Assembly: GCA_964427375.1 (NCBI GenBank)
Contig: CAYRUF010000020.1
Coordinates: 563 to 64,562, forward strand
Length of the DNA: 64,000 nt
From: an uncultured Desulfatibacillum sp.
GTDB taxonomy: Bacteria > Desulfobacterota > Desulfobacteria > Desulfobacterales > SpSt-501
Direction: 5' to 3'
This document shows positions 24,639 to 64,000 of this stretch, piece by piece. The notes below the pieces were generated by a model. The model saw nothing but the letters and a program-made list of their open reading frames with translations. It was not told the DNA's origin and made no database searches. How positions within the stretch are numbered: the first letter of the stretch is position 1; each line of letters starts with the position of its first letter. Made by a program: the position numbers and the translations under genes.

Positions 24639-24673
24639 TCCGGCGCCGAATCCCGCCCCGAAATTGGAAACGC

Positions 24674-25918
24674 ATGCTTATCCACCTTATTCTGGTTCTG
24701 ATTGGGATGCTGGCGCTGTCGGCCTTTTTTTCGGCCTCCGAAACCGCCCTCGCATTCACCCGCCAGGCCAAACCGCCGCACCCGACCCGAGGCGGCGGAC
24801 GGATCGGCGGCCTGCTCGATCGCCTGCAGGAAGACCCCGATCGCTTTTTCACCACGATCCGGATCGGCAATCATCTGGCCAATGTCGCCGCCTCCTGTCT
24901 GGCCACCCTGATCGCGTTTCAGACGGTGCCCAGCCATGTCGTTGCCGCCACCACGGGGATCATGACGGTCGTGATCCTGGTTTTCGGAGAGATCATTCCC
25001 AAATCGGTTGCACCCCGCAGCCATCTCCGGATTGCGCGAACGGTGATTGTCCCGATTTACTGGCTCTCCAAACTGGTTTACCCGTTGGTGTTGTTCCTGA
25101 ACTTTATTCCGCGCATGACCGACCGGATCCAGGGGCCGCCGCGGGTCACGGAAGCCGAGCTGCTCACCATGGTGGAGGCGGTGGAGGAGGACGGGCAGAT
25201 CAAGGAGGCAGAGAAGGAGCTGATCCACAACATCTTCGAATTCGACGATACCAGCGTTTCGGAGATCATGACCCCCCGGGCGGATATGTTCGTCGTCGAC
25301 ATCAACGCGAAGCTCGATCTTGCGGAAATTTTCAGATCCGGGTTTACGCGGATCCCGATCATCGATGGGGACATGGATCACATCATCGGCATTCTCAACA
25401 TCAAGGACTTGCTGCTGCAGTCTTCCGGCGGTCTGCCATCGTTGGATCTGCGCCAGATCATGCGAGAACCCTATTTCGTTCCGGAGCACAAGAAACTGGA
25501 TAAGCTGTTGCAGGGTTTCAAACGGCGCAAGCAACACCTGGCGATCGTCGTGGACGAACACGGCGGCGTGTCGGGGCTCATCACGCTGGAAGATGCCTTG
25601 GAGGAGATCGTTGGGGAAATCAGCGACGAGACCGATATCATCGAGTCGACGATTTCATCGGTCGCTCCCGGTGAATGGCGCGTGATGGGAAAAGCCGAAA
25701 TCGGCGAGGTGAACGAGCAGCTGCAGATGAATATTCCCGATACGGGAGAATACGACACGTTTTCGGGATATGTCATGAATCGGACCGGTCGGATCCCGCG
25801 GGAAGAAGAGGAGATACCCCTCGGGGAATTCACGGCGATCGTCAAGACCCGCAAAGGCAACCGCATCATCGAATACAAGGTCTGCAAACGGTTGCCGGCC
25901 CAACCCCTGAACGCATAG
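24674..25918 (+). CDS. HlyC/CorC (CNNM) family transporter
   Basis: LSAFFSASETA, VFGEIIPK, IMTPR, CBS pair, VVDEHGG..TLEDALEEIVGEI. Confidence 0.92.
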   Translation: MLIHLILVLIGMLALSAFFSASETALAFTRQAKPPHPTRGGGRIGGLLDRLQEDPDRFFTTIRIGNHLANVAASCLATLIAFQTVPSHVVAATTGIMTVVILVFGEIIPKSVAPRSHLRIARTVIVPIYWLSKLVYPLVLFLNFIPRMTDRIQGPPRVTEAELLTMVEAVEEDGQIKEAEKELIHNIFEFDDTSVSEIMTPRADMFVVDINAKLDLAEIFRSGFTRIPIIDGDMDHIIGILNIKDLLLQSSGGLPSLDLRQIMREPYFVPEHKKLDKLLQGFKRRKQHLAIVVDEHGGVSGLITLEDALEEIVGEISDETDIIESTISSVAPGEWRVMGKAEIGEVNEQLQMNIPDTGEYDTFSGYVMNRTGRIPREEEEIPLGEFTAIVKTRKGNRIIEYKVCKRLPAQPLNA

Positions 25919-25977
25919 GGATGCCGGCGCTACCGCCGCCATCCCCATGCCGCACGCCATCCCTTTCCGGAGGGACA

Positions 25978-26247
25978 CTAGTTGACGGCGTCTTTTAAGC
26001 CCTTGCCGGCCACAAACTTGGGAGACTTGGATGCGTTGATCTTGATCTCCTCGCCGGTCTGGGGGTTACGCCCCTTGCGGGCTTTGCGCTTCACAACTTT
26101 GAACGTCCCGAATCCCACGAGCGTGACCGTATCTCCTTTTTTCAACGCCTGGGTGATGGAATCCAGAACGCAGTCCACGGCGCTCTGGGCTTCCTTCTTG
26201 GTGCTGACGACCTGAGCCACTTCATTGATGATGTCTGCTTTGTTCAT
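25978..26247 (-). CDS. hup: HU family DNA-binding protein
   Basis: MNKADII, GFGTF, RKGRNPQTG, PKFVAGK. Confidence 0.95.
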   Translation of the reverse strand: MNKADIINEVAQVVSTKKEAQSAVDCVLDSITQALKKGDTVTLVGFGTFKVVKRKARKGRNPQTGEEIKINASKSPKFVAGKGLKDAVN

Positions 26248-26340
26248 GTCTATCTCCTTTCGTTTTCTTCAATTGCCGAGTCGTGGTTAAGGGAGGGGGA
26301 TGCGGTCAACCGGCCGGCGGGCCCCGTCTCCGCAGCCGCC

Positions 26341-26526
26341 TTAAATGCTGTCGCGGCAGCTTTGGCAGTATTTTCGAGGAGTGCCCCGGCCGATCCAATG
26401 AAAGTTCATAATATGCTTCTTGCCGCACTTCGGGCACAGGCATTCCACTTTGGATTTATCATGGTCGATCACGACATCCGGATCGTCGTTGGCTGTTTCC
26501 TTGGGCGCTTTCTTGGGTGCTTTCAT
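26341..26526 (-). CDS. small hypothetical Zn-ribbon protein
   Basis: 61 aa with CPKCG and YCQSC pairs, between dksA and hup on the same strand. Confidence 0.65.
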   Translation of the reverse strand: MKAPKKAPKETANDDPDVVIDHDKSKVECLCPKCGKKHIMNFHWIGRGTPRKYCQSCRDSI

Positions 26527-26647
26527 GGTCAATTTTCGTTTTAGAGATGGCATGTCCAAACACTCCGTCCCCGATCGCTGGGTGCTGGCCGGCCAGGCGC
26601 GGAGGCAGCTCCGGCCGTTACGCAAGGCGCGGTTGCATCGGATTCGA

Positions 26648-27010
26648 TCATGTCCCGGTCAGTTTTTCACGGGCTTCGATTTGGGTTTTGCAGCGGATGC
26701 AGTGACGCGTCACCGGACGAGCCTTGAGCCGCTCGATGGCGATATCCTCCCCGCAGGATTCGCAGGTTCCGTAAACGCCCTCTTCGATGTCCTGCAAGGT
26801 TTTGCGGATCTTCTTGATGAGCATGCTTTCACGGTCCCGAATGCGCAGGGTGAAGTTGCGTTCGGAGTCGAAAACGGCGCGGTCCAACGGATCCGGCAGG
26901 CTTTCATCGCTTTCCCTGAGCCCGTTCACCGTCGAATCCGCATGAGCGAGAAGTTCCTCCAGCCAGCGGCTGAGCAGATCTTTAAAGTACTTTAAATCCT
27001 TTTCTTTCAT
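26648..27010 (-). CDS. dksA: RNA polymerase-binding protein DksA
   Basis: PDPLDRA coiled-coil tip, YGTCESCGEDI..RL.ARP...CIRCK zinc finger. Confidence 0.93.
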   Translation of the reverse strand: MKEKDLKYFKDLLSRWLEELLAHADSTVNGLRESDESLPDPLDRAVFDSERNFTLRIRDRESMLIKKIRKTLQDIEEGVYGTCESCGEDIAIERLKARPVTRHCIRCKTQIEAREKLTGT

Positions 27011-27277
27011 CTATGGCATCCCCGGAAAAGATCATACGGCAGGGTTATCAAAAACAACCAACCCCGTCAACCGTTCAAAATGGGGCTTTCTTTATTCCCG
27101 AACGCATCCATTTTTTCAAGACTTTTCTGAAAACGGTCACCGATGGATGCCGACGGGCGCCGGACCCGAAGGCGCCCCGACCGGCCCGAATGTTTGACAT
27201 AGCCGGCGGAGTTGCCTAAAATAACCGCATACGGGTCGATGAACGGCCATTTCATTGGATCTCGAAATGGAGCAGGC

Positions 27278-27607
27278 ATGGAATCGAATCCCGAAAAGCG
27301 ATGCGAAGACCGCCAGGACTGCGATGCCGTCATCGAATGGGCTTATTTTAACAGGGGGGGCTGCTTCAGCGCCCGACTGTTGAACTTCAGCAAGGGCGGC
27401 GGCTATTTCGTATCCAACCAGCCGCTGACGCCGGGAACCACCGTCCTGATTCGGGTTCGGGATTTCAGCCCCGCCGAGTCGGGAACCTGCGGCACCCGCA
27501 CCACCCTGCGGACGAACGCTCTGGGCGAGGTCAAATGGTGCCGGGAAATCAGCAGCGAGGCGGCGGCGCGATTCGGGATCGGCGTGCGCTACCATTTCCC
27601 GGTATAG
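27278..27607 (+). CDS. single-domain PilZ protein
   Basis: RxxxR (RCEDR) and NxSxxG (NFSKGG) motifs, GEVKW, GIGVRY. Confidence 0.8.
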   Translation: MESNPEKRCEDRQDCDAVIEWAYFNRGGCFSARLLNFSKGGGYFVSNQPLTPGTTVLIRVRDFSPAESGTCGTRTTLRTNALGEVKWCREISSEAAARFGIGVRYHFPV

Positions 27608-27740
27608 CGGCTTCCGCGGCGAGCCGGCGCCGGGTCCGCCCAACCCCCCTTCGTTTCGATTCACTCATACCACATCGATCGATTCCCGGGCCTCCCGCAG
27701 AGCCGGCCTCGCCTTAAACCCAATTCTCTAAGACATAGGG

Positions 27741-28598
27741 ATGGACATGCAGCAGCGACTGATCAAAATGGGGTGGAACCTTTTTCTGATTATTGCCGGA
27801 AGCGTGCTATGCGCCGTGGCCATCAACGGCATCCTCATTCCCAACCAGTTCCTGGCCGGGGGGATCAGCGGCCTGAGTCTTTTTATTTATTACCTCTTTC
27901 CGTTCATGCCGGTCGGAGTCAACAATTTCCTTCTCAATATACCGCTTTTCGCGATCGGATGGTTGTTTGTCGGGCGCCGATTCTTCTTCTACAGTCTGGC
28001 CGGGATGGTGATCTTTTCGGCGGCACTGCTCCTGCAGGTGCCGGTGTTTCCGATTCGGGACCCGCTTCTCCAAGCGCTGACCGCCGGCATCATATCCGGC
28101 ATCGGCAGCGGCGTGATCCTGAAATCCCTCGGCTCCGGCGGAGGCCTGGATATTCTCTCGGTCATTTTGCTCAAGCGCTTTTCCATCCGAATCGGCACCA
28201 CGGTCATGGCGTTCAACTGCGCCCTGCTGGCGGCCTCGCTCTTCCGCTTCAGCCTGGACATCGTTCTTTACACCTTGATCTATCTTTTTGTCACGACCCA
28301 GCTCGTCAACCTGGTGGTGACCGGGCTCAACCAGCGCAAGGCGGTCATGGTGGTCTCGCCGGCATGGCAGGCCATCGCGCGCGAGATCATGGAGACCATG
28401 CAGCGCGGGGTCACCATCGTCAACGGCGAGGGCGGTTACACCGGCCATCCGCTGCGCATCATCTATTCGGTGATCACGTTCCAGGAACTGTCCCGTTTCA
28501 AAGAGATGGTCCGCCAGCATGACCCCCTCGCGTTTCTGGTGGTGACCGAAACCCTGGAGGTGATGGGCAGGGGGATCGGCAACCAGCCGCACTGGTAA
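27741..28598 (+). CDS. YitT family membrane protein (DUF161 + DUF2179)
   Basis: FLAGGISG, LNIPLF, GSGGGLDI, RGVT...G.GGYT, DPLAF. Confidence 0.9.
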   Translation: MDMQQRLIKMGWNLFLIIAGSVLCAVAINGILIPNQFLAGGISGLSLFIYYLFPFMPVGVNNFLLNIPLFAIGWLFVGRRFFFYSLAGMVIFSAALLLQVPVFPIRDPLLQALTAGIISGIGSGVILKSLGSGGGLDILSVILLKRFSIRIGTTVMAFNCALLAASLFRFSLDIVLYTLIYLFVTTQLVNLVVTGLNQRKAVMVVSPAWQAIAREIMETMQRGVTIVNGEGGYTGHPLRIIYSVITFQELSRFKEMVRQHDPLAFLVVTETLEVMGRGIGNQPHW

Positions 28599-31268: not shown

Positions 31269-32594
31269 TTATCCCCTTCCGACATCCGGATAGCGATAGA
31301 CCTGATCGCAGTAATTGCGAAGCAGCAGGTCGTCGCCGCTGCGGCCTTCGACATAATTGGGCATGAGCGGGATCTTGCCGCCGCCCCCGGGGGCGTCGAT
31401 GACGTAGGTCGGTACCGCGTACCCGGTGGTGAAGCCGCGCAGGCCCCGGATGATTTCAAGGCCCTTTTCGACCGGCGTGCGGAAATGGCTGGAGCCGGTG
31501 ATCGGGTCGCACTGATAGATGTAATACGGCCGCACGCGCATGCGCATCAGATGATGGCAGAGCGCCTTCATGGTCTCCACCGAATCGTTGATGCCCTTCA
31601 GCAATACCGTCTGGGAGCCCAGCGGAATGCCGGCGTTGGCCAGCCGTTCGCAGGCGCGGTAGGCCTCGGCCGTGCACTCGCCCGGATGCGTGAAATGCAG
31701 GCTCATCCACAGCGGGTGGTAGCGCCGCAGGACCCTCACCAGGTTCGGGGTGATGCGCTGAGGCAGCACGGCCGGGATCTTGGTGCCGATGCGGATGATC
31801 TCCACGTGCGGGATCTCACGCAGCCGTGACAGCAGCCAGTTCAATCGCTCGTCGTTCAACGTCAGCGGGTCGCCGCCGGAGATCAGGACATCGCGGACGG
31901 ACGTGGCCGAACGGATGTAATCGATGGCGCGCTCCAGGCGCGAGCGGCTGGGATAGATGGCGCCGTGGCCGACCACGCGGGAGCGCGTGCAATAGCGGCA
32001 ATACGTGGAGCAGAAGTCCAGCACCAACAGCAGCACGCGGTCCGGGTAGCGGTGGACCAGGCCGTGGACGGGGCTCTGTCCGTCTTCGCCGAGCGGATCA
32101 TCGGCTTCTCCGGGCGTTTGGATGAACTCGGAAACCGTCGGGATCACCGTCCGGCGCAGGGCATCGTTCGGGTCGTCCTTGGAAAGCAGGCTCATGAAAT
32201 AGGGCGTGATACCGACCGGCAGCCTGGATTGGATCTTCTCGACAGCCGTGCGCTCGGCGTCGGACAGCGCCAGCATTCGTTCGAGTTGATCCAGGTGGCG
32301 GACACGATTGCGGATCTGCCACTGCCAGTCCGTCCAGTCCTTGTCGCTAGCGGACGGGAAAAAGGCCCGGCGGAAGGCGGCGGCCCTGGGGCTGGAGATG
32401 GGTCGTGATTTGGGTGCTGGGAAAACAGAAATTTTGCCCCTGAAGCGCGGGGCTACTTCCGGTAGGGGAACGACGTTGGCCAGGCAGCCGGATGAACCGG
32501 GAGGTTCTTCATCACTTTCGCCGGCCGTCTCGCTGGTTGATCCGGATGCTGCGTGGCTGTCAGAATCGTGGGACCGGACCACATCCTGTTTCAT
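31269..32594 (-). CDS. kamA: KamA family radical SAM aminomutase (lysine 2,3-aminomutase-like)
   Basis: HRYPDRVL, CSTYCRYCTR, ISGGDPL, YIYQCD, IDAPGGGGKIP (PLP lysine). Confidence 0.92.
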   Translation of the reverse strand: MKQDVVRSHDSDSHAASGSTSETAGESDEEPPGSSGCLANVVPLPEVAPRFRGKISVFPAPKSRPISSPRAAAFRRAFFPSASDKDWTDWQWQIRNRVRHLDQLERMLALSDAERTAVEKIQSRLPVGITPYFMSLLSKDDPNDALRRTVIPTVSEFIQTPGEADDPLGEDGQSPVHGLVHRYPDRVLLLVLDFCSTYCRYCTRSRVVGHGAIYPSRSRLERAIDYIRSATSVRDVLISGGDPLTLNDERLNWLLSRLREIPHVEIIRIGTKIPAVLPQRITPNLVRVLRRYHPLWMSLHFTHPGECTAEAYRACERLANAGIPLGSQTVLLKGINDSVETMKALCHHLMRMRVRPYYIYQCDPITGSSHFRTPVEKGLEIIRGLRGFTTGYAVPTYVIDAPGGGGKIPLMPNYVEGRSGDDLLLRNYCDQVYRYPDVGRG

Positions 32595-33083
32595 GGCTGT
32601 CAGAGTTCTCCTTTCACCGGGGCCTTTCAAAGGCCCATACAAATAGTTAAATAGCTTGAAGGACGAAAAAGATCAGGGTATACTATCTTTACTGGGTTGT
32701 TGTGGGTTGCCTTCCCTTTGTTTATCGGTTGGGTTTGCTGCCGATTCGGCCCCGATAGGCCAAATTCGTCCCCTCCATATAGTATTTAGATGCAGACCCT
32801 AATACAAAATATCGTTGTTGTCAATAAAATATTTTATGTTGAAAATCTAACTTTTTTCTAATCCTCTTGGAGTATTATACTGTTTTTCAACTAATAATCA
32901 AAGCTCTTTTTTTCAGTCGGGTGATGCATAAATGCGACACGTGAGGCTGCCCTGGGATATGTATCTATATTGATACGTGTATCCGGCCTCATGCATCCAA
33001 TTAGAGGCCATTTTCGTACTATCGGATTACAAAGGGCTATGGATTAGAAAAATCGAACGTCGAATTCATAAGGAGGCAGAAGC

Positions 33084-33377
33084 ATGGCTCGTAAAGTGAA
33101 AAAGGACGCTCCCAGGCGACGACGGATTGAATTTTCGATCGAGATGCCCAAGGCCAGCCAGGTGATCCTGATGGGCGATTTCAACCAGTGGGAACCGAAA
33201 ACTCATCCCATGCGCAAAGATGCGGACGGCGTATGGCGCAAGACCGTCATGATCTACCCGGGGCGGTATGAGTACCGGTTTTGGGTGGACGGCGAATGGT
33301 ACAACGACCCGCACAATCGGCTGCGCTGTCCGAACTGCTTCGGAAGCGAAAACAACGTGATCGAAGTGACCACGTGA
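33084..33377 (+). CDS. stand-alone CBM48 / isoamylase early-set domain protein
   Basis: VILMGDFNQW, GVWR, GRYEYRFWVDGEW..DP, FGSENNV. Confidence 0.88.
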   Translation: MARKVKKDAPRRRRIEFSIEMPKASQVILMGDFNQWEPKTHPMRKDADGVWRKTVMIYPGRYEYRFWVDGEWYNDPHNRLRCPNCFGSENNVIEVTT

Positions 33378-33486
33378 CCATCGGATGCTCAGTCCGGATG
33401 CCGGACGGCGGGCCGTTTCTCAGCGAGCCGAGGCGGCGGCTCAAAGCCCTGTGAGGCGAGGGAGGGCCGGCCGGGGGCGGCGGAGG

Positions 33487-35844
33487 TTATTTTTCAAGCG
33501 CCAGCTTGAGGACGTCCATCATTCGATCCACGAAGTGAAACGTGATGTCCTTTTGCACTTTCTTCGGGATGTCTTCCAGGTCCTTGTGATTTTCTTTGGG
33601 CAGGATGACCGTCTTGATTCCGGCGCGGTGGGCGGCCAGCACTTTTTCCTTGATCCCGCCCACCGGCAGCACCTGGCCGCGCAGGGTGATTTCCCCGGTC
33701 ATGGCGAGATCTTTGACCACCGCATGCTTGGTGAGGAAGGAGACCAGGGCGGTGAAGATGGTGACTCCGGCCGAGGGTCCGTCCTTGGGGATGGCGCCGG
33801 CCGGTATGTGGATGTGGATGTCCTGGCTTTCGAAGATGGTTTCGGACAGGCCCAGTTTGACGGCGTGAGTGCGGATGAAGCTCAGCGCCGCCTGGGCCGA
33901 CTCCTTCATGACATCGCCGAGTTGGCCGGTCATGATCAGGCGATCCTTGCCCTTCATGGCGGTGGCTTCGACAAAGAGGATGTCGCCGCCGACCTGGGTC
34001 CAGGCCAGGCCGGTGACCACCCCCGGCGTGGACGTGCGCGACCGGGTTTCCGCGCTGAAGCGCACCGGCCCGAGATATTTGGTGACCTGCTGGGCCTTGA
34101 TGGCCTCGGCGGTGATCGACCCCTCGGCGACTCGGCTGGCCACCCCGCGGCAGATGGAACCGATCTCGCGTTCCAGGTTGCGCAGGCCGGCCTCCCGCGT
34201 GTAGCCGGAGATGATGTGCCGCAGGGCCGCGCGGCTGAAGGTGATCTGCTCGGCCGAAAGCCCGTTGGCCGAGCGCTGGCGGGGGATCAGGTGCCGCTCG
34301 GCGATGTGGATCTTCTCGTCCTCGGTATAGCCCAGCAGCTGCAGCACTTCCATGCGGTCGCGCAGCGCCGGCGGGATCGTGTCGAGGATGTTGGCGGTGG
34401 CGATGAACATGGCTTTGGACAGGTCGAACGGCACGTCGAGATAATGGTCCTGGAAGGAGTGGTTCTGCTCGGGGTCGAGCACCTCCAGCAGGGCCGATGA
34501 GGGGTCGCCGCGGAAATCGGCGCCCAGCTTGTCGATTTCGTCGAGCATAAAAACGGGGTTGTTGGATTCGGCGCGGCGGATGCCCTGGATGACCCGTCCG
34601 GGCAGGGCGCCGACATAGGTGCGGCGGTGGCCGCGGATCTCGGCTTCGTCCCGCACGCCGCCGAGGGACATGCGATAGAACTTGCGGCCGAGGGCGCGGG
34701 CGATGGACTGGCCGAGCGAGGTCTTGCCGGTGCCGGGAGGGCCCGCAAAGCACAGGATCGGCCCCTTGGAGTCGGGCTTGAGCTTGCGCACGGCGAGATA
34801 TTCGATGATGCGGCGCTTGGGCTTTTCAAGGCCGTAATGGTCGTCGTCCAGCACCTTGCGGGCCTTCTTGATATCCAGGTTGTCCTCGGTGGCCTGGTGC
34901 CAGGGCAGGCCGGTCAGCCAATCGAGAAACGTGGTGGCGACCGTGTACTCCGCCGAGGAGGGATGCATGCGCCCGAGCCGTTCGAGCTCGCGCTCCGCCT
35001 CTTTGGCCGCCTCCGGCGGCAGGTTGGCCTCGCTGACCTTGGTGCGATAGGTCTCCACCTCGGCGGTGGCTTCGTCCTTTTCGCCCAGCTCGGCCTTGAT
35101 GGCCTTGAGCTGTTCGCGCAGGTAGTACTCGCGCTGCTTCTTGTCCATGTCCTCCTTGACCTGGTCCTGGATCTTCTTGCCCAGCTCCAGGATTTCCAGC
35201 TGCTTGTTCACGATGCGCGTGACCTCCTTCAGCCGGTCGGCCACGGGTCCGAGCTCAAGCACCTTCTGCTTTTCTTCCGCCGTGGCGTTGATGGAGGAGG
35301 CGATCATATCGGCCAGGGTGCCGGCCTCCTTGATCGACTGCGCCATGTAGACGACTTCGGCGGGAAGGGTCGGCGACGCCTGCACGACGCGCGCAAAGAG
35401 GTTCACAATATTGGTCATCAAGGCTTCGATCTCGGTATTCTGCGAGGCGTCTTCGGCCAAATGCTCGACCTCGGCCTGGAAGAAGGCCTTGCCCTCGGCC
35501 TGCACGAGGTTCTTGATCCGGAAACGCCCCAGGCCCTGGACCAGCAGCTGGGTGCGGTTTTCAGGGGTCTTGGCCATTTTGAGGATCATGGCGCTCGTTC
35601 CTACGGACGCGTAGCTCTCCGGCTTCGGCGGCCCTTCCTGGGAGGGGTCGGGTTTGGCGAAGACCATGCCGATCAGGCGGTCGCGCGACATGGCCTCGTC
35701 GATGAGCTGCACCGAATCCGGCTGCATCACCAGCAGCGGGGTCACCATCTTGGGAAACAGCACCGAGTCGACCACCGGCAGCAGGGGCAGAATATCCGGA
35801 AGCTGGTTCGCAACAGCGGCTTCAGATGATTGTTCGTCGGTCAT
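33487..35844 (-). CDS. lon: Lon protease (copy 2)
   Basis: [27 protein letters not shown]. Confidence 0.95.
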
Positions 35845-58058: not shown

Positions 58059-59786
58059 GTGAGACCAGAGGACGCCTGGAAGCGGTATGCGGCCGCCGAA
58101 GACGGAGCGGTCCGCAAGCACGCGCGCGGAAGAATCCGCATCGCATTGGCTTACCCCAACCGCTATTCCGTGGGCATGGCGAACCTGGGGCTGCACGCCG
58201 TCTATGGGCTTCTCAACCGCTATGACGACGTGGTCTGTGAACGGGTGTTCCTGCCCGAAAACGAGGACCTCGCGGCCGGACGCCTGACGACGTTCGAATC
58301 CGGGCTGCCGGTCGCCGCGGTGGACCTGATCGCCTGCTCCATTTCGTTTGAAAGCGACTACTCCCACCTGCTGACCCTCCTCCAGCTGGCCGGGATGCCT
58401 CTGCCGGCCGCGCACCGAGACGAGCGCCACCCTTTAGTGATCGCCGGCGGAATCGCCTGTTTCCTGAACCCCGAACCCATCGCCGCATTTGTCGACGCCT
58501 TTCTGATCGGAGAGGCCGAGGCGATTCTGCCTCAATTCCTGCAGGTGTTCCAGCCGGGCGCCGAGCGCCGCACGATGTTGAAGACGATCGCCCGCTCGGT
58601 CCCCGGCGCCTACGTGCCGCGCTTCTACGACGTGCGCTACGCCGCCGACGGAACCCTGAGCGCCTGGACCCCGACCGAAGAGGTCCCGTCCCGGATCGTG
58701 CGGCCGTGCGTCCCGGACCTGTCGGCGACCGCCACGTGCAGCACGGTGCTCACCCCCCACACCGCCCTGGGCGGCTCCCTGCTCGTCGAAGTCGGGCGAG
58801 GTTGCCCGCATGGCTGCCGCTTCTGCAGCGCGGGGTTCGTCTACCGGCCGCCGCGCTTCCGCACGGAGGCGTCCCTGGCGCAAACCATCGAACAGGGCCT
58901 GGCCCGCAGCCACCACATCGGCCTGGTGGGTGCGGCGGTCTCCGACCTGCCCGGCATCGCCTCGCTCTGCCGGCGGTTTTCCGGCCCGGACGTCACGCTC
59001 TCGTTCAGTTCGCTGCGGGCGGATGCGCTCCGCCCGGAGCTCCTGGACGCGCTCCGCCGCAGCCGGGTCAAAACCGCCACGATCGCTCCGGAGGCCGGCT
59101 CGGAGCGCTTGCGCCGCGTCATCAACAAGGGGATTCAAGAAGCGGACGTCCTCAATGCGGCCACGGCCCTGGTCGCCCACGGCATTCCGAACCTGAAGCT
59201 GTACTTCATGGTGGGGCTGCCGACCGAAACGAATGCGGATGTCGATGCGATTGTGGTTCTGGTCAAGCACATCAAGCACGCGTTTTTGAAATCCAGCCGA
59301 ACCCGCGGCGCCATCGGCACCCTGACGGTCAGCGTCAGTTCCTTTGTGCCGAAGCCCTTCACTCCGTTTCAGTGGGCGGCCATGGCCCCGACGGCCGAAC
59401 TCAAGGCCCGCATCAAGCGCATCCAGGCCGGACTGAAGCGCGTGCCCAACGTCCGGGTTCACTCCGATCTGCCGCGTTGGGCCTACATCCAAGCCCTGCT
59501 GGCGCGCGGTGACCGCCGGGTGGCCGACCTGCTGGTGCGGGCGGACGCGGCCGGGGGCAACTGGGCCCATGCGCTCAAAACCGGGCCGCTCAACCCGGAT
59601 TTCTACGTGCTCCGGGAGCGGGGGCCGGAAGAGATTCTGCCCTGGGACTTCATCGATCACCGCATCACCAAAGCCTACCTTCTGAACGATTACCGCCGAG
59701 CCCTGGAGGGCCGCCCGGGGACGGTCTGCCGGACGGAGTCCTGCCGGCGGTGCGGCGCCTGCGGCGAAGAATCCCTCGACACGTAG
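58059..59786 (+). CDS. radical SAM protein (TIGR03960-like, B12-binding-like N-terminus)
   Basis: YPNRYSVGMANLG, RGCPHGCRFC, TIAPEAGSERLR, LYFMVGLPTE, C-terminal CRRCGAC. Confidence 0.85.
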   Translation: MRPEDAWKRYAAAEDGAVRKHARGRIRIALAYPNRYSVGMANLGLHAVYGLLNRYDDVVCERVFLPENEDLAAGRLTTFESGLPVAAVDLIACSISFESDYSHLLTLLQLAGMPLPAAHRDERHPLVIAGGIACFLNPEPIAAFVDAFLIGEAEAILPQFLQVFQPGAERRTMLKTIARSVPGAYVPRFYDVRYAADGTLSAWTPTEEVPSRIVRPCVPDLSATATCSTVLTPHTALGGSLLVEVGRGCPHGCRFCSAGFVYRPPRFRTEASLAQTIEQGLARSHHIGLVGAAVSDLPGIASLCRRFSGPDVTLSFSSLRADALRPELLDALRRSRVKTATIAPEAGSERLRRVINKGIQEADVLNAATALVAHGIPNLKLYFMVGLPTETNADVDAIVVLVKHIKHAFLKSSRTRGAIGTLTVSVSSFVPKPFTPFQWAAMAPTAELKARIKRIQAGLKRVPNVRVHSDLPRWAYIQALLARGDRRVADLLVRADAAGGNWAHALKTGPLNPDFYVLRERGPEEILPWDFIDHRITKAYLLNDYRRALEGRPGTVCRTESCRRCGACGEESLDT

Positions 59787-59910: not shown

Positions 59911-62025
59911 ATGCTGGAAGGCATCTTTTTCATGACGGCGCTGGGTGCGGCCTGCAGCATCGTACTGGGCATCGCATCCCGCATTTTTTATGTCTACGAG
60001 GATCCGCGCATCGCCCAGGTGGAGGCGTGTTTCGCGGGGGCCAATTGCGGCGGATGCGGATTCGCCGGTTGCTCGGCGGCTGCGGCGGCCGTGGTCGGCG
60101 GCAAGGCCAAACCCAACGTGTGCGTCGTCGGCGGCATGGAATCCGCACAGAATGCGGCCGCCGTCATGGGCATGGAGGTCGGCTCGGTCGAACCGCCGAA
60201 ATCCTTCAACCCCTGCACCGGCGGCGATCGCGCCGAAAACAAGTTCCTATATATAGGGGTCGCCACCTGCCAGGCCGAAGCCGCGCTGTTCAGCGGCAAG
60301 CGGGTCTGCGAGGTCGGCTGCATCGGCCACGGCGACTGCGTGCGCGCCTGCCTGTTCAACGCCATCGCCATGGGGCCGGGCGGCTTCCCCGTCGTGGATG
60401 AGGAAAAGTGCGTGGGCTGCGGCGCCTGCGCCCGGGCCTGCCCCAAGAGCCTGCTCAAAATCAGCACCCCTTCCGAACGCCTGCTGCACTTCAACCAAGT
60501 CGGAGACTGCCTGGCGCCCTGCCGCCAGACGTGTCCGGCCGAGATCGACATTCCGCTCTATATTCATCAAATCCGCACCGGCGACTACGCCGGCGCGGTC
60601 AACACCATCCGCGAGCGCAACCCGCTGCTGCTCGCCTGCGGCCGGGTGTGCCCGCACCCCTGCGAGCTGAACTGCCGGCGCGGCGTCGCCGACGAGCCGG
60701 TCTCGATCAACCAGCTCAAGCGCTTCGCCGCCGATTACGAGATGACCTCCGGCAAGCGCCTGCCCATCCGGGTCGCGCCCGATACGGGCAAGCGAGTGGC
60801 GGTGGTCGGCGGCGGGCCGGCCGGGCTCACCTGCGCATACTTTTTGAGGCGGCTGGGCCACGGCGTCACCATCTTCGAAGCCATGCCCAAGCTCGGCGGC
60901 ATGCTGCGCTACGGCATCCCGGAATACCGTCTGCCGAAGCAGGTGCTGGACTGGGAGATCGAGAGCATCCTCAACCTGGGCGTCGAGGTCCGCACCGGGG
61001 TCCGTTTCGGATCGGACATCCAGCTCGACGGCCTCCGGGCGGACGGTTTTGATGCCGTTTTCGTGGGCGTCGGCGCCTGGAAAGACAGCAAGATGGCGGT
61101 GCCCGGCGAGGAGCTGCAAGGCTGCTACACCGGCATCGATTTCCTGGCCCGGCTCGCCTCCGGGGAGAAACTGAACATCCGACCGGTGGCTGCCGTCATC
61201 GGCGGGGGCAACACGGCGATCGACTGCACGCGCAACCTGCTGCGGCTGGGGGCCCGCAAGGTCTATCTGGTCTACCGCCGGACGCGCAAAGAGATGCCCG
61301 CCAACGAGGTCGAAGTCGAGGCGGCCGAGCACGAGGGCGTGGAGCTGATCTTCCTGAGCGCGCCGGTGCGCGTGGTGGGGGACGAGCACGGCCGCGTCAC
61401 CCACCTGGAGTACCTGCGCATGGAGCTGGGCGAGCCGGATGCCAGCGGCCGGCGCCGGCCCGTACCGGTGAAGGGCTCCGAAACGCTTCTGGCGACCGAC
61501 ATGGTGATCTCGGCCATCGGCCAAGCGCCGGATGTCTCCTTCGCGGCCAGCGCTCAACTGAAAACCACGCGGTGGAGCACCATCGAGTCTGACCCCGCCA
61601 CGCTTCAGACCAACATCCCCTTCTTGTTTGTCGCCGGTGATGTGGCCACGGGTCCATCTCTGGTCGTCGAGGCCATCGGCGGGGGACGGCGCGCGGCGCG
61701 CTCCATTCACCAGTTCGTCACCGGCCGCCCGGTGGAGGCCGAACCCAACGAGCTGCGCAAGAATCTGCTCACCGAAACCATTTTCGATCAGGTTCCCGGG
61801 GTGGTCCCGTTCCCGCGGGCGAAGATGGTGGAGCTGCCGGCCGCCGAGCGGATCCGCTCCTTTGACGAGGTCGACCAGGTGCTGACCGAAGCGGCCGCCC
61901 GGCGCGAGAGCGAACGATGCCTTTACTGCTGCCTGACCTGTTACAACCCGGACCCGACGGCACCGGGCGCCGCTCAAAATTCTGCAGCGGTTGCGGCCGC
62001 CGGCGGGCACACGCATGCCGCCTGA
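59911..62025 (+). CDS. rnfB: RnfB-like Fe-S membrane subunit fused to a GltD/NfnB-like FAD-NAD(P) oxidoreductase
   Basis: TM helix, GANCGGCGFAGC cluster, two ferredoxin motifs, then PCRQTCP/CGRVCPHPCE, GGGPAG, GGGNTAIDC..YRR. Confidence 0.85.
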   Translation: MLEGIFFMTALGAACSIVLGIASRIFYVYEDPRIAQVEACFAGANCGGCGFAGCSAAAAAVVGGKAKPNVCVVGGMESAQNAAAVMGMEVGSVEPPKSFNPCTGGDRAENKFLYIGVATCQAEAALFSGKRVCEVGCIGHGDCVRACLFNAIAMGPGGFPVVDEEKCVGCGACARACPKSLLKISTPSERLLHFNQVGDCLAPCRQTCPAEIDIPLYIHQIRTGDYAGAVNTIRERNPLLLACGRVCPHPCELNCRRGVADEPVSINQLKRFAADYEMTSGKRLPIRVAPDTGKRVAVVGGGPAGLTCAYFLRRLGHGVTIFEAMPKLGGMLRYGIPEYRLPKQVLDWEIESILNLGVEVRTGVRFGSDIQLDGLRADGFDAVFVGVGAWKDSKMAVPGEELQGCYTGIDFLARLASGEKLNIRPVAAVIGGGNTAIDCTRNLLRLGARKVYLVYRRTRKEMPANEVEVEAAEHEGVELIFLSAPVRVVGDEHGRVTHLEYLRMELGEPDASGRRRPVPVKGSETLLATDMVISAIGQAPDVSFAASAQLKTTRWSTIESDPATLQTNIPFLFVAGDVATGPSLVVEAIGGGRRAARSIHQFVTGRPVEAEPNELRKNLLTETIFDQVPGVVPFPRAKMVELPAAERIRSFDEVDQVLTEAAARRESERCLYCCLTCYNPDPTAPGAAQNSAAVAAAGGHTHAA

Positions 62026-62134
62026 TCTGCGGGTTGATGGAATGGCGGCGCCGATCCGCGCCCGGGGGAATCGACCCGCCGGCAGCTAACGATCAGGTCA
62101 TACTCATAGCTTGAGCACGGAAGGAGCATTGCCC

Positions 62135-62524
62135 ATGATGTTTTCGCGGAAAGAGCTGAACCTGGTTTACGTGGGAACCGCCATCCTGCTCTTCCTAGCC
62201 GTGGTGAGCTATGCGGCCTTTCCCAACCAGGCTCCGAAGCAGCCCTTGCGGATCGCGTTTCAAAGTGTGGCCGGCAAGGTCATGTTCGATCATGCCCGCC
62301 ATCGCTGGGAGGCGGGGTATAGCCTGGCCTGCGGGGAATGTCACCATACGCTGGCCCCCGATGAATACGACCAGGCCGGCTCCTGCACCGAATGCCACCC
62401 CGTAGAGGACAGCGACGATCCAATGCTCAAACGTTCGGACGCCATCCACCAGCAGTGCATCGGCTGCCATCGGGAGTACGGTGCGGGGCCGGTCGACTGC
62501 GCCCAATGTCATGTGATGCAATGA
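62135..62524 (+). CDS. tetraheme class III cytochrome c (c3-like), membrane-anchored
   Basis: Four CxxCH motifs (CGECH, CTECH, CIGCH, CAQCH), FDHARH, N-terminal hydrophobic segment. Confidence 0.9.
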   Translation: MMFSRKELNLVYVGTAILLFLAVVSYAAFPNQAPKQPLRIAFQSVAGKVMFDHARHRWEAGYSLACGECHHTLAPDEYDQAGSCTECHPVEDSDDPMLKRSDAIHQQCIGCHREYGAGPVDCAQCHVMQ

Positions 62525-62553
62525 TCCTGTGCCGCTCGAAGAGGGATTGACCG

Positions 62554-63843
62554 ATGACCATGTTGAGTTCGAAGGCGTTTTTGGGAATGGGACTGCCGCG
62601 CCTGGAATACGCCCCGGTGCCGCCGAGGGTCGACCGTCCCGAGTCCATCCGGCCGGCAGGACCCTTGGCCCTACTGCACCCGCGTCCGGCCGAGATCCGG
62701 GCGGTTCCGGCCGTCAAGATTGGCGCCGCCGTCAAAACCGGCCAGAAACTGTCGCTCTACGGCAATGGCGACTACGTCACCGCATCGGTCACCGGAACCG
62801 TGACGTCCCTGACGCCCTTCCCGGGCAGCTTCGGCCGGAACTACACCGCCGTCGGCATTGCCCCGGGGCCCGACGATCTTTTTGACGATGCGCTGGCGGC
62901 GGCGCAAGCGACACCGTCCCTTGCCGGCGCTCTGGAGTTTCTGGCTGCCTGCCCCGGTGCGCCCGGCCTGCAACGGCTGGCCGATCCGGAGCGGCCGATC
63001 AAAACGCTGGTCGTTTGCGGGGTCGATCAGGATCTGCTCGTGTTCACCCAGCAGTATATCCTCGGCACCCGCGGCCAGGACATTCAAAAGGGAATCCGCT
63101 TGCTGAAGCAGGTCGCCGGCATCGAAGAGGTGATCATCCTCACTCGCAGGGAAGCCGTCCAGGGATACGGCCATATCGTCGGCCGGGTGATGGGTGTGGA
63201 CCACCGCTACCCCTCGGCGCTGCCGCCGCTGGTGATGGCCGGCCTCTTCGGCCGCGTGGTGCCGGCCGGCCGGACCTGCGAAGACCTGGGGTTCTGCTTC
63301 ATGAGCGCCGAGGCGGTGGCCTCGATCGGAGCGGCCTTCAACACCGGCCGCATGCCGGTCACCAAGCTTCTGACCGTCATCCCCAAGGACGGCGCGGCCC
63401 GTCTCGCGGAGGCGCCCGTCGGTACGCCCGTCGGCGAGGTGCTGAACCGCTTCGGCATCTCTATCGACGCGGGGGACCGCATCGTGACCGGCGGCCCGAT
63501 GCGGGGAACCGCCGTGTTTTCACTCGATCACCCCGTGCAGCCCGACACCGACGGCCTCCTCGTTCTCAGCGCGGCGTCCGCGGCCAACGTCTCCGACTAT
63601 CCCTGTATCAACTGCGGTGAATGCGTCCGCGTCTGCCCGGCTCGCATGCAGATCAACCTGCTGGTGCGCTACCTGGAGGCCGGCAAGTACGAAGACGCCG
63701 AGGAATCCTACGATCTGCACGCCTGCGTCGAGTGCGGGCTCTGTAGCTTCGTCTGTGTTTCGAACATCCCGATCCTACAGTACATCATGCTCGCCAAGCA
63801 CGAACTGGCGCGCATGCGATCAACGGAGACTCATGATGGCTGA
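62554..63843 (+). CDS. rnfC: RnfC-like subunit (degenerate FMN/NADH motifs)
   Basis: VKIGAAVKTGQKL, VGTPVGEVL SLBB, GGPMRG, CINCGECVRVCP and CVECGLCSFVC. Confidence 0.82.
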   Translation: MTMLSSKAFLGMGLPRLEYAPVPPRVDRPESIRPAGPLALLHPRPAEIRAVPAVKIGAAVKTGQKLSLYGNGDYVTASVTGTVTSLTPFPGSFGRNYTAVGIAPGPDDLFDDALAAAQATPSLAGALEFLAACPGAPGLQRLADPERPIKTLVVCGVDQDLLVFTQQYILGTRGQDIQKGIRLLKQVAGIEEVIILTRREAVQGYGHIVGRVMGVDHRYPSALPPLVMAGLFGRVVPAGRTCEDLGFCFMSAEAVASIGAAFNTGRMPVTKLLTVIPKDGAARLAEAPVGTPVGEVLNRFGISIDAGDRIVTGGPMRGTAVFSLDHPVQPDTDGLLVLSAASAANVSDYPCINCGECVRVCPARMQINLLVRYLEAGKYEDAEESYDLHACVECGLCSFVCVSNIPILQYIMLAKHELARMRSTETHDG

Positions 63844-64000
63844 AAAACAAAAACTCGTCGTCTCCTTCGCGCCCTTCTGGCACAACGGCAGCCGGGTGAC
63901 CGACCGCAGCCGGCAGATCTTTCTCGCCGCATTGCCCGCCGCCCTTTTCGGCGTTTACCGGTTCGGCATCGGTGCTCTGGGCGTATTGGCGCTATCCGTG
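63836..64000 (+). CDS. rnfD: RnfD-like membrane subunit (3' partial)
   Basis: LVVSFAPFWHNG..IFLAALPAALFGVYRFG N-terminus, overlapping the rnfC stop. Confidence 0.8.
   Translation, partial: MAEKQKLVVSFAPFWHNGSRVTDRSRQIFLAALPAALFGVYRFGIGALGVLALSV

What the first reader, a model, noticed from the sequence alone, without database searches (positions are those of the whole stretch)
62554..63843. RnfC with eroded FMN/NADH-binding motifs but intact ferredoxin clusters
Seen: where RnfC normally has GIxGxGGAGFP and INxAECEPY, this protein reads FLAACPGAPG and VVCGVDQDLL. The SLBB segment, GGPMxG and both CxxCxxCxxxC motifs remain. Inference: RnfC no longer reduces NAD+, so the complex's chemistry is rewired. 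Together with the RnfB fusion and the cytochrome, this suggests a cytochrome or ferredoxin to NADP(H) route, possibly with reversed electron flow.
Basis: partly seen in the sequence, partly recalled or inferred. Interest (0 to 1): 0.7.

Follow-up and report, generated by a model that had tools for sequence, protein, structure and literature searches.

The report
Flavin-less RnfC of Tol2-type Rnf complex
This gene encodes the C subunit of a variant membrane redox pump of sulfate-reducing Desulfobacterales in which the usual NADH/flavin pocket has been remodelled and an NADPH-binding module sits on another subunit; the variant was noted in genome papers in 2013 and 2016 but its chemistry has never been tested.

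Summary
ORF 62554-63843 (429 aa) has the RnfC fold and both CxxCxxCxxxC cluster motifs. It lacks all three FMN/NADH signatures of canonical RnfC: the GxGGAxFP loop (8 residues deleted), NxAECEPY (now CGVDQDLL) and YPxGxEK (now YPSALP).

"Eroded" is the wrong word. The replacement residues are conserved, dN/dS is 0.20-0.27, and none of 270 relatives (down to about 25% identity) has the canonical motifs.

The gene sits in an operon: RnfB fused to a GltD-like module, then cytochrome c3, then RnfC*, then rnfD (the window ends there; G, E and A follow in a 90%-identical relative). The same set recurs in about 62 of 80 Desulfobacterales loci. The fusion also accompanies 4 of 4 distant relatives that have enough genomic context. 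Its flavin module is closest to the NADPH/FAD modules of NfnABC, StnC and NfnB.

This is the "Desulfobacula toluolica Tol2-type Rnf" (Rnf2) described from annotation in PMC5109826, which is expressed in D. multivorans but has no biochemistry.

The likeliest mechanism is that NADPH enters on the B arm, in an NQR-like layout. RnfC* would then act as an Fe-S-only relay to an unknown partner, and the cytochrome would link the complex to the periplasm. This is inference, not shown. It is a new member of a known but uncharacterised kind, of moderate interest.

The parts
59911..62025 (+). RnfB* fusion, 704 aa. Residues 1-195 are the RnfB membrane anchor, the PF04060 Fe-S domain and one 2x[4Fe-4S] ferredoxin domain. 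Residues about 198-604 are a GltD/NfnB-like FAD/NADPH module with a Fer4_20 dicluster domain. The C-terminal tail carries a CxxCCxxC motif.
   Evidence: Pfam and NCBIfam hits. In the PDB search the RnfB part matches 7zc6_B residues 9-194 of 274 and 9eri_B residues 12-193 of 333. The rest matches NfnA of NfnABC (9bov_A, 448 bits), 9n5u_A, StnC (8oh5_C) and NfnB (4ylf_B, 5jca_L). GGGPAG, GGGNTA (GxGxxA) and YRRTRKEMP are conserved across the family.
62111..62524 (+). Tetrahaem cytochrome c3, 137 aa, with four CxxCH motifs and an N-terminal hydrophobic signal or anchor segment.
   Evidence: Pfam Cytochrom_CIII 53.3 bits (cutoff 22.9). NCBIfam TmcA-like 67.7 bits, below its cutoff of 114. A homologue lies directly upstream of RnfC* in essentially all Desulfobacterales loci that reach that far, with 4 haems in 32 loci and 5 in 43.
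62554..63843 (+). RnfC*, 429 aa: the RnfC fold without the FMN/NADH motifs, with two [4Fe-4S] motifs.
62938..62967 (+). Residues 129-138, FLAACPGAPG. This replaces the GxGGAxFP flavin-phosphate loop and is 8 residues shorter. The family consensus is L-x3-P-G-x-P.
63010..63039 (+). Residues 153-162, VVCGVDQDLL. This replaces NxAECEPY. The family consensus is (I/V)(I/V)xGxDxDLL, with D160 invariant.
63208..63225 (+). Residues 219-224, YPSALP. This replaces YP(Q/S)GxEK of canonical RnfC.
63490..63507 (+). Residues 313-318, GGPMRG. This motif is retained in the SLBB-like subdomain.
   Evidence: Invariant at G313, G314 and G318.
63604..63639 (+). Residues 351-362, CINCGECVRVCP: the first [4Fe-4S] motif.
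   Evidence: All four Cys are invariant in 81 of 81 sequences and in 35 of 35 distant representatives.
63724..63756 (+). Residues 391-401, CVECGLCSFVC: the second [4Fe-4S] motif.
63833..64000 (+). 5' end of rnfD (MMAEKQKLVVSFAPFWHNG...). It overlaps the rnfC* stop codon and runs off the end of the window.
   Evidence: The full rnfD-G-E-A set is seen in L001, a 90%-identical relative.

Best explanation
**What it is (shown by sequence).** The ORF is the C subunit of a Tol2-type (Rnf2) ion-translocating Rnf complex of an uncultured freshwater Desulfobacterales bacterium.
- RnfC* keeps the RnfC fold, its place in the rnfCDGEA operon and both [4Fe-4S] clusters.
- The NuoF-like FMN/NAD(H) pocket has been rebuilt into a different, conserved surface.
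- The partner RnfB keeps its membrane anchor, the Fe-S domain that faces RnfA/E, and one dicluster domain.
- The distal polyferredoxin of RnfB, where ferredoxin normally docks, is replaced by an NfnB/StnC-like FAD/NADPH module.

**How it most likely works (inferred).**
- The pyridine-nucleotide site has moved from the C arm to the B arm.
- Proposed path: NADPH -> FAD -> Fer4_20 clusters -> RnfB clusters -> RnfA/E [2Fe-2S] -> RnfG FMN.
- From RnfG, electrons either leave to the periplasmic tetrahaem c3, or return through the RnfD flavins to the two RnfC* clusters.
- The RnfC* clusters would pass electrons to a still unidentified cytoplasmic acceptor that is not a nicotinamide.
- This layout parallels Na+-NQR, which has an FAD/NADH module on the A/E side and a cofactor-poor C/A subunit.
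- By the published coupling model, flow from the B arm to RnfG exports Na+/H+. The reverse flow would use the ion gradient to make NADPH.
For: **Identity and fold.**
- Sequence hits to the RnfC chains 9eri_C, 8ahx_C and 7zc6_C at E 1e-26 to 1e-31.
- AF2 pLDDT 80, with Foldseek TM 0.64-0.67 to those same chains, about 0.55 to NqrA and about 0.45 to NuoF/HydB.

**Motif loss and conservation.**
- (0 of 270 relatives carry the canonical motifs).
- dN/dS 0.20-0.27.
- The ferredoxin domain is the most conserved region (0.82). The former pocket regions (0.54-0.67) are no less conserved than the rest of the protein.

**Operon conservation.**
- The fusion + c3 + C*DGEA set recurs in about 62 of 80 loci, in two gene orders.
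- Distant RnfC* proteins at 27-29% identity (P0210, P0215, P0198, P0244) all lie next to a 670-713 aa RnfB-GltD fusion.

**The fusion.**
- Its best PDB matches are NADPH/FAD modules.
- GxGxxA and YRRTRxEMP are conserved. PMC7483475 cites GxGxxA as an NADP(H) signature and shows that the homologous StnC binds FAD and oxidises NADPH.

**The rest of the electron path is intact.** These were read in L001, the 90%-identical relative, and across the related loci, because the window ends inside rnfD.
- RnfA/E cysteines are present.
- RnfG carries SGATxT.
- RnfD carries T(E/D)DxSSP where C. tetanomorphum RnfD has TDYATSP.

**Literature.**
- The same architecture is described as Tol2-type Rnf. Five of six Rnf2 subunits were detected in D. 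multivorans membranes (PMC5109826).
- The coupling direction comes from the A. woodii structure paper (PMC11889175).

**Transcription.** Sediment metatranscriptome contigs at 85-96% identity span the fusion/c3 and c3/rnfC* junctions.
Against: - There is no biochemical datum for any member of this variant.
- Flavin absence is inferred from motifs only. I could not inspect the model's pocket geometry.
- NADPH versus NADH specificity rests on motif homology.
- No conserved neighbouring gene suggests a partner for RnfC*.
- Three loci lack an adjacent fusion: L071 has a stand-alone 266-aa RnfB, and L072 and L079 have none within about 7 kb.
- The driving force from NADPH to c3 haems may be small.
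Confidence: 0.6

Rival explanations
1. NqrA-like outcome. RnfC* is essentially a structural cap. Its clusters are vestigial or only modulate the complex. All productive electron flow ends at RnfG -> cytochrome c3, or at a quinone site in RnfD as in NqrB. The complex would then be an NADPH:cytochrome c3 or NADPH:menaquinone oxidoreductase.
For: - NqrA is the precedent for a C-type subunit that lost its cofactors (PMC4014512; PMC12174285).
- Foldseek also matches NqrA (TM 0.55), and NCBIfam gives a weak NqrA hit.
- A cytochrome is fixed in the Desulfobacterales operons.
- No RnfC* partner gene was found.
Against: - All eight Cys are invariant across 81 close and 35 distant sequences, and the ferredoxin domain is the most conserved part of the protein. 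That argues for working clusters.
- Distant operons L082 and L088 have no adjacent cytochrome, so the cytochrome cannot be the universal acceptor.
Confidence: 0.17
2. Membrane-bound flavin-based electron bifurcation or confurcation. The NfnB/StnC-like FAD on RnfB* splits the NADPH electron pair. One electron goes to ferredoxin through the Fer4_20 clusters. The other goes into the Rnf membrane path towards cytochrome c3 or RnfC*. The reverse reaction would be Fd(red) + reduced c3 -> NADPH.
For: - The closest solved relatives of the module are bifurcating enzymes: NfnABC, StnABC and NfnAB.
- The Arg proposed to tune the bifurcating FAD appears conserved (GIPEYRLPK against GIPEFRLPK in 5jca_L).
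- A conserved extra CxxCCxxC motif lies at the C-terminus.
Against: - GltD-type modules also act as simple linear NADPH inputs in glutamate synthase and dihydropyrimidine dehydrogenase, which also appear.
- The Arg is not specific to bifurcating members (my own knowledge, not tested here).
- No second branch can be demonstrated from sequence.
Confidence: 0.1
3. RnfC* still binds a flavin and reacts with NAD(P)H through non-canonical residues. The complex would then be an ordinary Fd/NAD(P)H Rnf with an extra module.
For: - The fold is kept and the pocket region has conserved acidic and Gly/Pro residues.
- There is a weak partial Complex1_51K hit, 23.5 bits.
- Some distant members keep a longer loop, GIIEIGTPALPLHVKLAPP.
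Against: - The phosphate-binding Gly loop is deleted.
- The canonical NxAECEPY consensus is replaced (CGVDQDLL), and the YPxGxEK motif is lost.
- 0 of 270 relatives keep either motif.
- A second nicotinamide site on RnfB* would make an RnfC site redundant.
Confidence: 0.08
4. A decaying gene or pseudogene (random erosion).
For: Scores are below the cutoffs of the curated RnfC models.
Against: - The ORF is intact.
- dN/dS is 0.20-0.27.
- More than 300 species-level genomes and 231 representative clusters (E<=1e-30) share the same architecture.
- Proteomic detection in D. multivorans.
Confidence: 0.01

Closest known systems
Tol2-type Rnf complex (Rnf2) of Desulfobacula toluolica Tol2, Desulfococcus multivorans and Desulfobacterium autotrophicum (described from annotation and proteomics; PMC5109826)
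   Same: - An RnfB of about 700 aa with an added NAD(P)-binding flavoprotein part.
- An RnfC without detectable Complex1_51K or SLBB Pfam domains but with two 4Fe-4S motifs.
- An rnfCDGEA core.
- Desulfobacterales host.
   Different: - This locus comes from an uncultured freshwater lineage and has the fusion upstream (B*-cyt-C*DGEA) rather than downstream.
Canonical RnfC (A. woodii 9ERI, A. vinelandii 8AHX, C. tetanomorphum 7ZC6; E. coli RsxC)
   Same: - Overall fold (TM 0.64-0.67).
- N-terminal barrel-sandwich domain.
- GGPMxG motif.
- C-terminal 2x[4Fe-4S] ferredoxin domain.
- Gene position before rnfD.
   Different: - Only 23-26% identity.
- GxGGAxFP deleted, and NxAECEPY and YPxGxEK replaced.
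- Below the TIGR01945 and Complex1_51K cutoffs.
- FMN and NAD+ binding is therefore not expected.
Na+-NQR (NqrA plus NqrF)
   Same: - The C/A-type subunit has lost the flavin/nicotinamide site.
- A separate FAD/NAD(P)H module feeds the A/E (NqrD/E) side.
- The architectural logic is therefore the same.
   Different: - NqrA has lost the Fe-S clusters too.
- NqrF is an FNR-type protein unrelated to GltD and is not fused to an RnfB.
- NQR reduces ubiquinone.
- RnfB is absent from NQR.
Cytochrome-associated Rnf complexes (Methanosarcina acetivorans MmcA-Rnf; Desulfovibrio multihaem cytochrome-rnfCDGEAB)
   Same: A c-type cytochrome gene is co-transcribed directly upstream of rnfC. It is proposed to link RnfG to periplasmic or membrane acceptors.
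   Different: - M. acetivorans RnfC is reported to keep its cofactor sites (bioRxiv 2022.07.20.500911), and its RnfB is not fused to a flavoprotein.
- NF041837 scores 93 bits against a cutoff of 650 here.
- The cytochrome here is a small 4-haem c3.
NfnA of NfnABC, StnC of StnABC and NfnB of NfnAB (GltD-like NADPH/FAD modules)
   Same: The fusion's residues about 191-675 align at 384-448 bits, including the FAD and NADP(H) glycine motifs, the two N-terminal clusters and the start of the following Cys motif.
   Different: Here the module is fused behind a membrane-anchored RnfB, instead of a NuoG-like domain or an NfnA partner. No HydB/NuoF-like NADH subunit is encoded nearby.

Membership tests
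Canonical RnfC (TIGR01945 / Fd:NAD+ Rnf, NAD+-reducing subunit) | Whole-protein score above the curated cutoff | tested here: not met
   TIGR01945 scores 168.2 against 245.95. RsxC NF003454 scores 152 against 345.
Canonical RnfC (TIGR01945 / Fd:NAD+ Rnf, NAD+-reducing subunit) | NuoF-like FMN/NADH site: the GxGGAxFP loop, NxAECEPY and YPxGxEK | tested here: not met
   All three are replaced or deleted. Complex1_51K scores 23.5 against 31.2.
Canonical RnfC (TIGR01945 / Fd:NAD+ Rnf, NAD+-reducing subunit) | Two CxxCxxCxxxC(P) [4Fe-4S] motifs in a C-terminal ferredoxin domain | tested here: met
   Residues 351-362 and 391-401, invariant across the family.
Canonical RnfC (TIGR01945 / Fd:NAD+ Rnf, NAD+-reducing subunit) | RnfC three-dimensional fold | tested here: met
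   AF2 pLDDT 80 and pTM 0.79. Foldseek matches 9eri_C at E 6e-26, TM 0.67.
Canonical RnfC (TIGR01945 / Fd:NAD+ Rnf, NAD+-reducing subunit) | Non-covalent FMN and NADH:acceptor activity | not testable with these tools
   This needs recombinant protein.
Tol2-type Rnf (Rnf2) as defined in PMC5109826 | Large RnfB (about 700 aa) with an NAD(P)-binding part added to the Fe-S domains | tested here: met
   704 aa, with FeS + Fer4 + Fer4_20 + Pyr_redox_2 + NAD_binding_8 domains.
Tol2-type Rnf (Rnf2) as defined in PMC5109826 | RnfC lacking detectable NADH-ubiquinone oxidoreductase (Complex1_51K) and SLBB domains | tested here: met
   Complex1_51K is below the gathering score and SLBB is not reported at E<=0.01.
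Tol2-type Rnf (Rnf2) as defined in PMC5109826 | Complete rnfCDGEA core in the same operon | tested here: inconclusive
   The window holds rnfC* and the first 55 codons of rnfD and then ends. The 90%-identical locus L001 has D, G, E and A.
Tol2-type Rnf (Rnf2) as defined in PMC5109826 | Sequence orthology to the D. toluolica, D. multivorans or D. autotrophicum Rnf2 proteins | not tested
Relatives come from Desulfosarcina, Desulfatibacillum and Desulfatirhabdium MAGs.
Na+-NQR subunit NqrA | No redox cofactors; operon nqrABCDEF with NqrF | tested here: not met
   Eight cluster Cys are present. There is an RnfB fusion instead of NqrF. NqrA models score 57 against 450 and 22.7 against 321.
Methanosarcina-type RnfC (NF041837) | Score above cutoff, and mmcA-rnfCDGEABX context with canonical cofactor sites | tested here: not met
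   93 bits against 650, and only residues 218-422 match. The literature says the M. acetivorans cofactor sites are conserved.
Class III cytochrome c (c3) for ORF 62111-62524 | Pfam PF02085 above the gathering score and four CxxCH motifs | tested here: met
   53.3 bits against 22.9, with four CxxCH motifs in the translated ORF.

The most novel reading that the evidence does not exclude
The Tol2-type Rnf may be a convergent, NQR-like redox pump driven by (or producing) NADPH. Its Fe-S-only RnfC* would dock a non-nicotinamide cytoplasmic partner, such as a ferredoxin- or flavodoxin-like protein or a component of the sulfite-reduction pathway, while a periplasmic c3 taps the same chain at RnfG. 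A more radical version has the NfnB-like FAD on RnfB* making it the first membrane-integral, ion-coupled flavin-based electron-bifurcating complex. Either reading would add a new node to energy conservation in completely oxidising sulfate reducers.
Probability: 0.2. Interest if true: 0.85.

Novelty: new member of a known kind. Interest (0 to 1): 0.5.

Why it matters
Desulfobacterales carry out much of the carbon mineralisation in anoxic sediments, and their energy budget is tight. In D. multivorans this variant is made under all growth conditions tested, alongside a normal Rnf, and nobody knows what it oxidises or reduces.

The present analysis shows three things:
- The variant is a large and old clade, with more than 300 species-level genomes and relatives down to about 25% identity.
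- Loss of the FMN/NAD pocket in RnfC and gain of an NADPH/FAD module on RnfB go together.
- The cytochrome is a lineage-specific addition.

This makes the question directly testable. Two recombinant proteins and one membrane preparation from cultivated strains would be enough. It also offers a living analogue of the evolutionary step from Rnf to Na+-NQR.

Tried and rejected
- **Second canonical rnf operon.** tblastn of the window with this operon's proteins and the E. coli Rsx proteins found nothing else in the 64 kb.
- **Pocket geometry.** The prediction tool returns only summary statistics, so the model could not be checked for an FMN-sized cavity.
- **Original D. toluolica paper** (doi 10.1111/j.1462-2920.2012.02885.x). 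It is not held, so I relied on its summary in PMC5109826.
- **Context of distant representatives.** The contigs for P0240, P0193 and P0206 were too short to show rnfB.
- **Conserved neighbour that could be an RnfC* partner.** Only the upstream dcw cluster/ftsZ and a TIGR03960 B12-radical-SAM gene are conserved, with nothing informative downstream.
- **Pseudogene or erosion reading.** Rejected on dN/dS and conservation.
- **Fd at RnfC* -> NADP+ at RnfB* (reversed polarity).** Considered unlikely, because the published mechanism couples G-to-B flow to ion import. An exergonic reaction would then dissipate the gradient. This is reasoning, not a test.
- **RNA evidence.** Only low-identity metatranscriptome contigs from related organisms were found. 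Contamination with DNA cannot be excluded.
Full report
**1. The observation**

The ORF at 62554-63843 (+ strand, 429 aa) is intact. It is preceded by a Shine-Dalgarno-like GAGGG, and its stop codon overlaps the start of rnfD.

The curated models see it as RnfC-like but below threshold:
- TIGR01945 scores 168 bits against a cutoff of 246.
- Complex1_51K scores 23.5 against 31.2.
- RnfC_N scores 17.9 against 25.6.
- SLBB gives no hit at E<=0.01.

The best solved relatives by sequence are the three RnfC structures: A. woodii 9eri_C (1.7e-31), A. vinelandii 8ahx_C and C. tetanomorphum 7zc6_C. The HMMER alignment puts an 8-residue gap in the query directly after residues 129-139, where the canonical flavin loop is expected, and aligns 153-162 with only two matching residues.

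A MAFFT alignment with E. coli RsxC (fetched as L081) shows the same. GLGGAGFPTG lies opposite CPGAPGL, NAAECEPYIT opposite CGVDQDLLVF, and KYPSGGAKQL opposite RYPSALPPLV. So three motif groups of the NuoF-like flavin/nicotinamide site are gone, while the ferredoxin domain is intact.

**2. It is not erosion**

A word-indexed search found 1084 relatives. The best 120 are 50-90% identical and nearly all about 427 aa long. A scan of species-representative genomes found at least 321 genomes with a relative. The best 80 loci are nearly all labelled Desulfobacterales or unclassified delta-proteobacterial MAGs, including Desulfatibacillum, Desulfosarcina, Desulfatirhabdium, Ca. Desulfatibia and an Olavius symbiont.

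In an alignment of the 80 loci plus the window, the replacement residues are themselves conserved:
- L130, P134, G135 and D160 are invariant in 81 of 81 sequences.
- G156, D158 and T165 are conserved in 77 of 81.
- All eight cysteines and GGPMxG are invariant or nearly so.

dN/dS against four relatives is 0.20-0.27. Region by region, the ferredoxin domain is the most conserved (0.82). The former pocket regions (0.54-0.67) are as conserved as the rest of the protein.

An exhaustive HMMER search of 1.84 billion representatives gave 231 clusters at E<=1e-30. The best 150, down to 24-30% identity, all score higher than any canonical RnfC in the PDB search. None of these 270 proteins matches regexes for GGAxFP or NxxExEP, whereas E. 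coli RsxC matches both. Some distant members (P0206, P0210, P0215) keep the longer loop in mutated form, for example GIIEIGTPALPLHVKLAPP. These look like transitional states.

**3. Structure**

An AlphaFold2 model built on a 45-sequence alignment has mean pLDDT 80 and pTM 0.79. Most of residues 30-340 score 78 or higher. The cluster-binding loops score low, as expected without cofactors.

Foldseek against the PDB returns these matches:
- RnfC of A. woodii (E 6e-26, TM 0.67), A. vinelandii and C. tetanomorphum
- then NqrA (TM about 0.55)
- then NuoF/HydB-type subunits (about 0.45)

The fold, including the SLBB-like subdomain, is therefore retained. I could not inspect the pocket geometry, because coordinates are not returned.

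**4. Context**

The window shows, in order:
- ftsA, ftsZ and a TIGR03960 B12-radical-SAM gene
- a 704-aa RnfB fusion (59911-62025)
- a 137-aa tetrahaem c3 (62111-62524)
- RnfC*
- the start of rnfD

L001, whose RnfC* is 90% identical, continues with rnfD, G, E and A.

BLAST of all ORFs in the 80 loci gave the following:
- The c3-C*-D-G-E-A set is present wherever the contig reaches.
- About 62 loci carry a roughly 700-aa RnfB-GltD fusion.
- The fusion lies either upstream (B*-cyt-C*DGEA, as in the window and its closest relatives) or downstream (cyt-C*DGEA-B*).
- Most of the loci without a fusion are truncated contigs.
- Three are genuine exceptions. L071 has a stand-alone 266-aa RnfB, and L072 and L079 have no rnfB within about 7 kb.

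Four distant RnfC* representatives with enough context (27-29% identity: P0210, P0215, P0198, P0244) all sit in C*DGEA operons followed by a 670-713 aa RnfB-GltD fusion. P0198 has a small c3 upstream. P0215 has only a large multihaem gene downstream. P0210 and P0244 have no adjacent cytochrome. RseC or ApbE genes are nearby in three of the four.

So remodelling of the RnfC pocket and the flavoprotein fusion on RnfB are tightly linked over a deep clade. The small cytochrome is a narrower addition.

**5. The fusion and the rest of the electron path**

Against the PDB, residues 6-190 of the fusion match RnfB of C. tetanomorphum (residues 9-194 of 274) and A. woodii (12-193 of 333). That covers the membrane anchor, the Fe-S domain that feeds RnfA/E, and one dicluster domain. 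The distal polyferredoxin, where ferredoxin is thought to dock (PMC11889175), is not covered.

Residues 191-675 match these NADPH/FAD modules:
- NfnA of the NfnABC complexes (9bov_A at 448 bits, and 9n5u_A)
- StnC (8oh5_C)
- NfnB (4ylf_B, 5jca_L)
- more weakly, GltD and dihydropyrimidine dehydrogenase

GGGPAG (FAD), GGGNTA (GxGxxA), YRRTRxEMP and a C-terminal CxxCCxxC are conserved in the family. PMC7483475 cites GxGxxA as an NADP(H) signature and shows that recombinant StnC binds FAD and oxidises NADPH.

The other cofactor sites of the U-shaped Rnf path are present. They were read in L001 and in the related loci, because the window ends inside rnfD:
- the RnfA and RnfE cysteines
- SGATxT in RnfG
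- T(E/D)DxSSP in RnfD, aligned with TDYATSP of C. tetanomorphum RnfD. A Ser lies where that protein has Thr.

**6. Literature**

PMC5109826 states that a different type of Rnf was reported in Desulfobacula toluolica Tol2. Its RnfB is about 700 aa with NAD+-binding sites. [quoted passage not shown]

D. multivorans and D. autotrophicum carry both an A. woodii-type Rnf1 and a Tol2-type Rnf2. Five of six Rnf2 subunits were detected under all growth conditions tested. The mode of action "awaits experimental verification".

The 2025 RNF/NQR review does not mention Desulfo- organisms or NADPH at all. My searches found no biochemical or structural follow-up. Cytochrome-linked Rnf operons are known from Desulfovibrio and M. 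acetivorans. M. acetivorans RnfC is said to keep its cofactor sites.

The finding is therefore a new member of a known but uncharacterised variant.

**7. Mechanism**

What is shown is listed in sections 1-5. The following is inferred.

- NADPH has replaced ferredoxin as the B-arm substrate.
- The proposed path is NADPH -> FAD -> Fer4_20 clusters -> RnfB clusters -> RnfA/E [2Fe-2S] -> RnfG FMN.
- From RnfG, electrons can go to the periplasmic c3, or through the RnfD flavins to the two RnfC* clusters and on to an unknown cytoplasmic acceptor.
- In the A. woodii model, B-to-G electron flow drives Na+ export. NADPH oxidation would therefore be energy-conserving only with acceptors of clearly higher potential.
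- The reverse direction would make NADPH at the expense of the ion gradient.
- The layout parallels Na+-NQR, where an FAD/NADH module feeds the D/E side and NqrA has lost its cofactors.

Rival explanations:
- An NqrA-like structural RnfC*, with electrons exiting at RnfG or RnfD.
- A bifurcating FAD on RnfB*.
- A non-canonical flavin site in RnfC*.

The invariant cysteines argue against the first rival. Nothing in the sequence can decide the second. The deleted phosphate loop argues against the third.

**8. Additional evidence and limits**

The exact sequence occurs in freshwater metagenomes. A sediment metatranscriptome holds contigs of 85-96% identity across the fusion, the cytochrome and rnfC*. 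Two of them span gene junctions, which is consistent with co-transcription in related organisms, although DNA carry-over cannot be excluded.

No second rnf operon lies in the window. Whether the genome has a canonical Rnf1 could not be checked.

**9. Verdict**

This is a new member of a known kind. Interest is moderate (0.5), because the function of this widespread complex is still open and is now easy to test.

Noticed in passing
window 58059-59786 (+): A B12-binding radical SAM protein of the uncharacterised TIGR03960 family (438 bits, just under its cutoff of 462) lies between ftsZ and the rnf operon. The ftsA-ftsZ-rSAM arrangement upstream of the rnf genes recurs in about 41 of 80 related loci. 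The rnf2 operon therefore has a fixed chromosomal position after the dcw cluster.
   Followed up: partly
window 61924-61947 (fusion residues about 672-679, CLYCCLTC): A conserved C-terminal CxxCCxxC motif follows the GltD-like module. It aligns with the start of the next Fe-S region in NfnA of NfnABC (9bov_A) and may bind an extra cluster.
   Followed up: partly
L001 11283-12242 (rnfD) and related loci: The RnfD flavin-attachment motif reads T(E/D)DxSSP, with Ser where C. tetanomorphum RnfD has Thr (TDYATSP). This is conserved in at least 55 of the 79 loci with a detectable RnfD. In the other 24 the motif was not matched, and some of those RnfD ORFs are truncated by contig ends.
   Followed up: partly
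L001-L080, cytochrome gene upstream of rnfC*: The small cytochrome has 4 CxxCH motifs in 32 loci (including the window) and 5 in 43 loci. Its length ranges from 121 to 186 aa.
   Followed up: partly
L071 589-1389 (-); L072 and L079: These are exceptions to the fusion rule. One locus has a stand-alone 266-aa RnfB transcribed divergently from cyt-rnfC*. Two loci have no rnfB within about 7 kb of cyt-C*DGEA.
   Followed up: partly
L082 14447-15466 and 16153-16614; L085 7780-8271; L087 13984-14430: The distant Tol2-type operons are flanked by ApbE (flavin transferase) and RseC/MucC genes, which are the usual Rnf maturation and accessory genes.
   Followed up: no
window 24001-28000 and 32001-34000: G+C drops to 0.56-0.59 against a background of about 0.65-0.69. 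AT skew is also negative at 26-28 kb (-0.136) and, outside the dips, at 34-36 kb (-0.146). These may be acquired or otherwise unusual segments.
   Followed up: no
window 61855-62191 and 62254-62654: Contigs from a sediment metatranscriptome (run X25), about 91-94% identical, bridge the fusion/cytochrome and cytochrome/rnfC* junctions. This suggests one transcript in related bacteria.
   Followed up: partly
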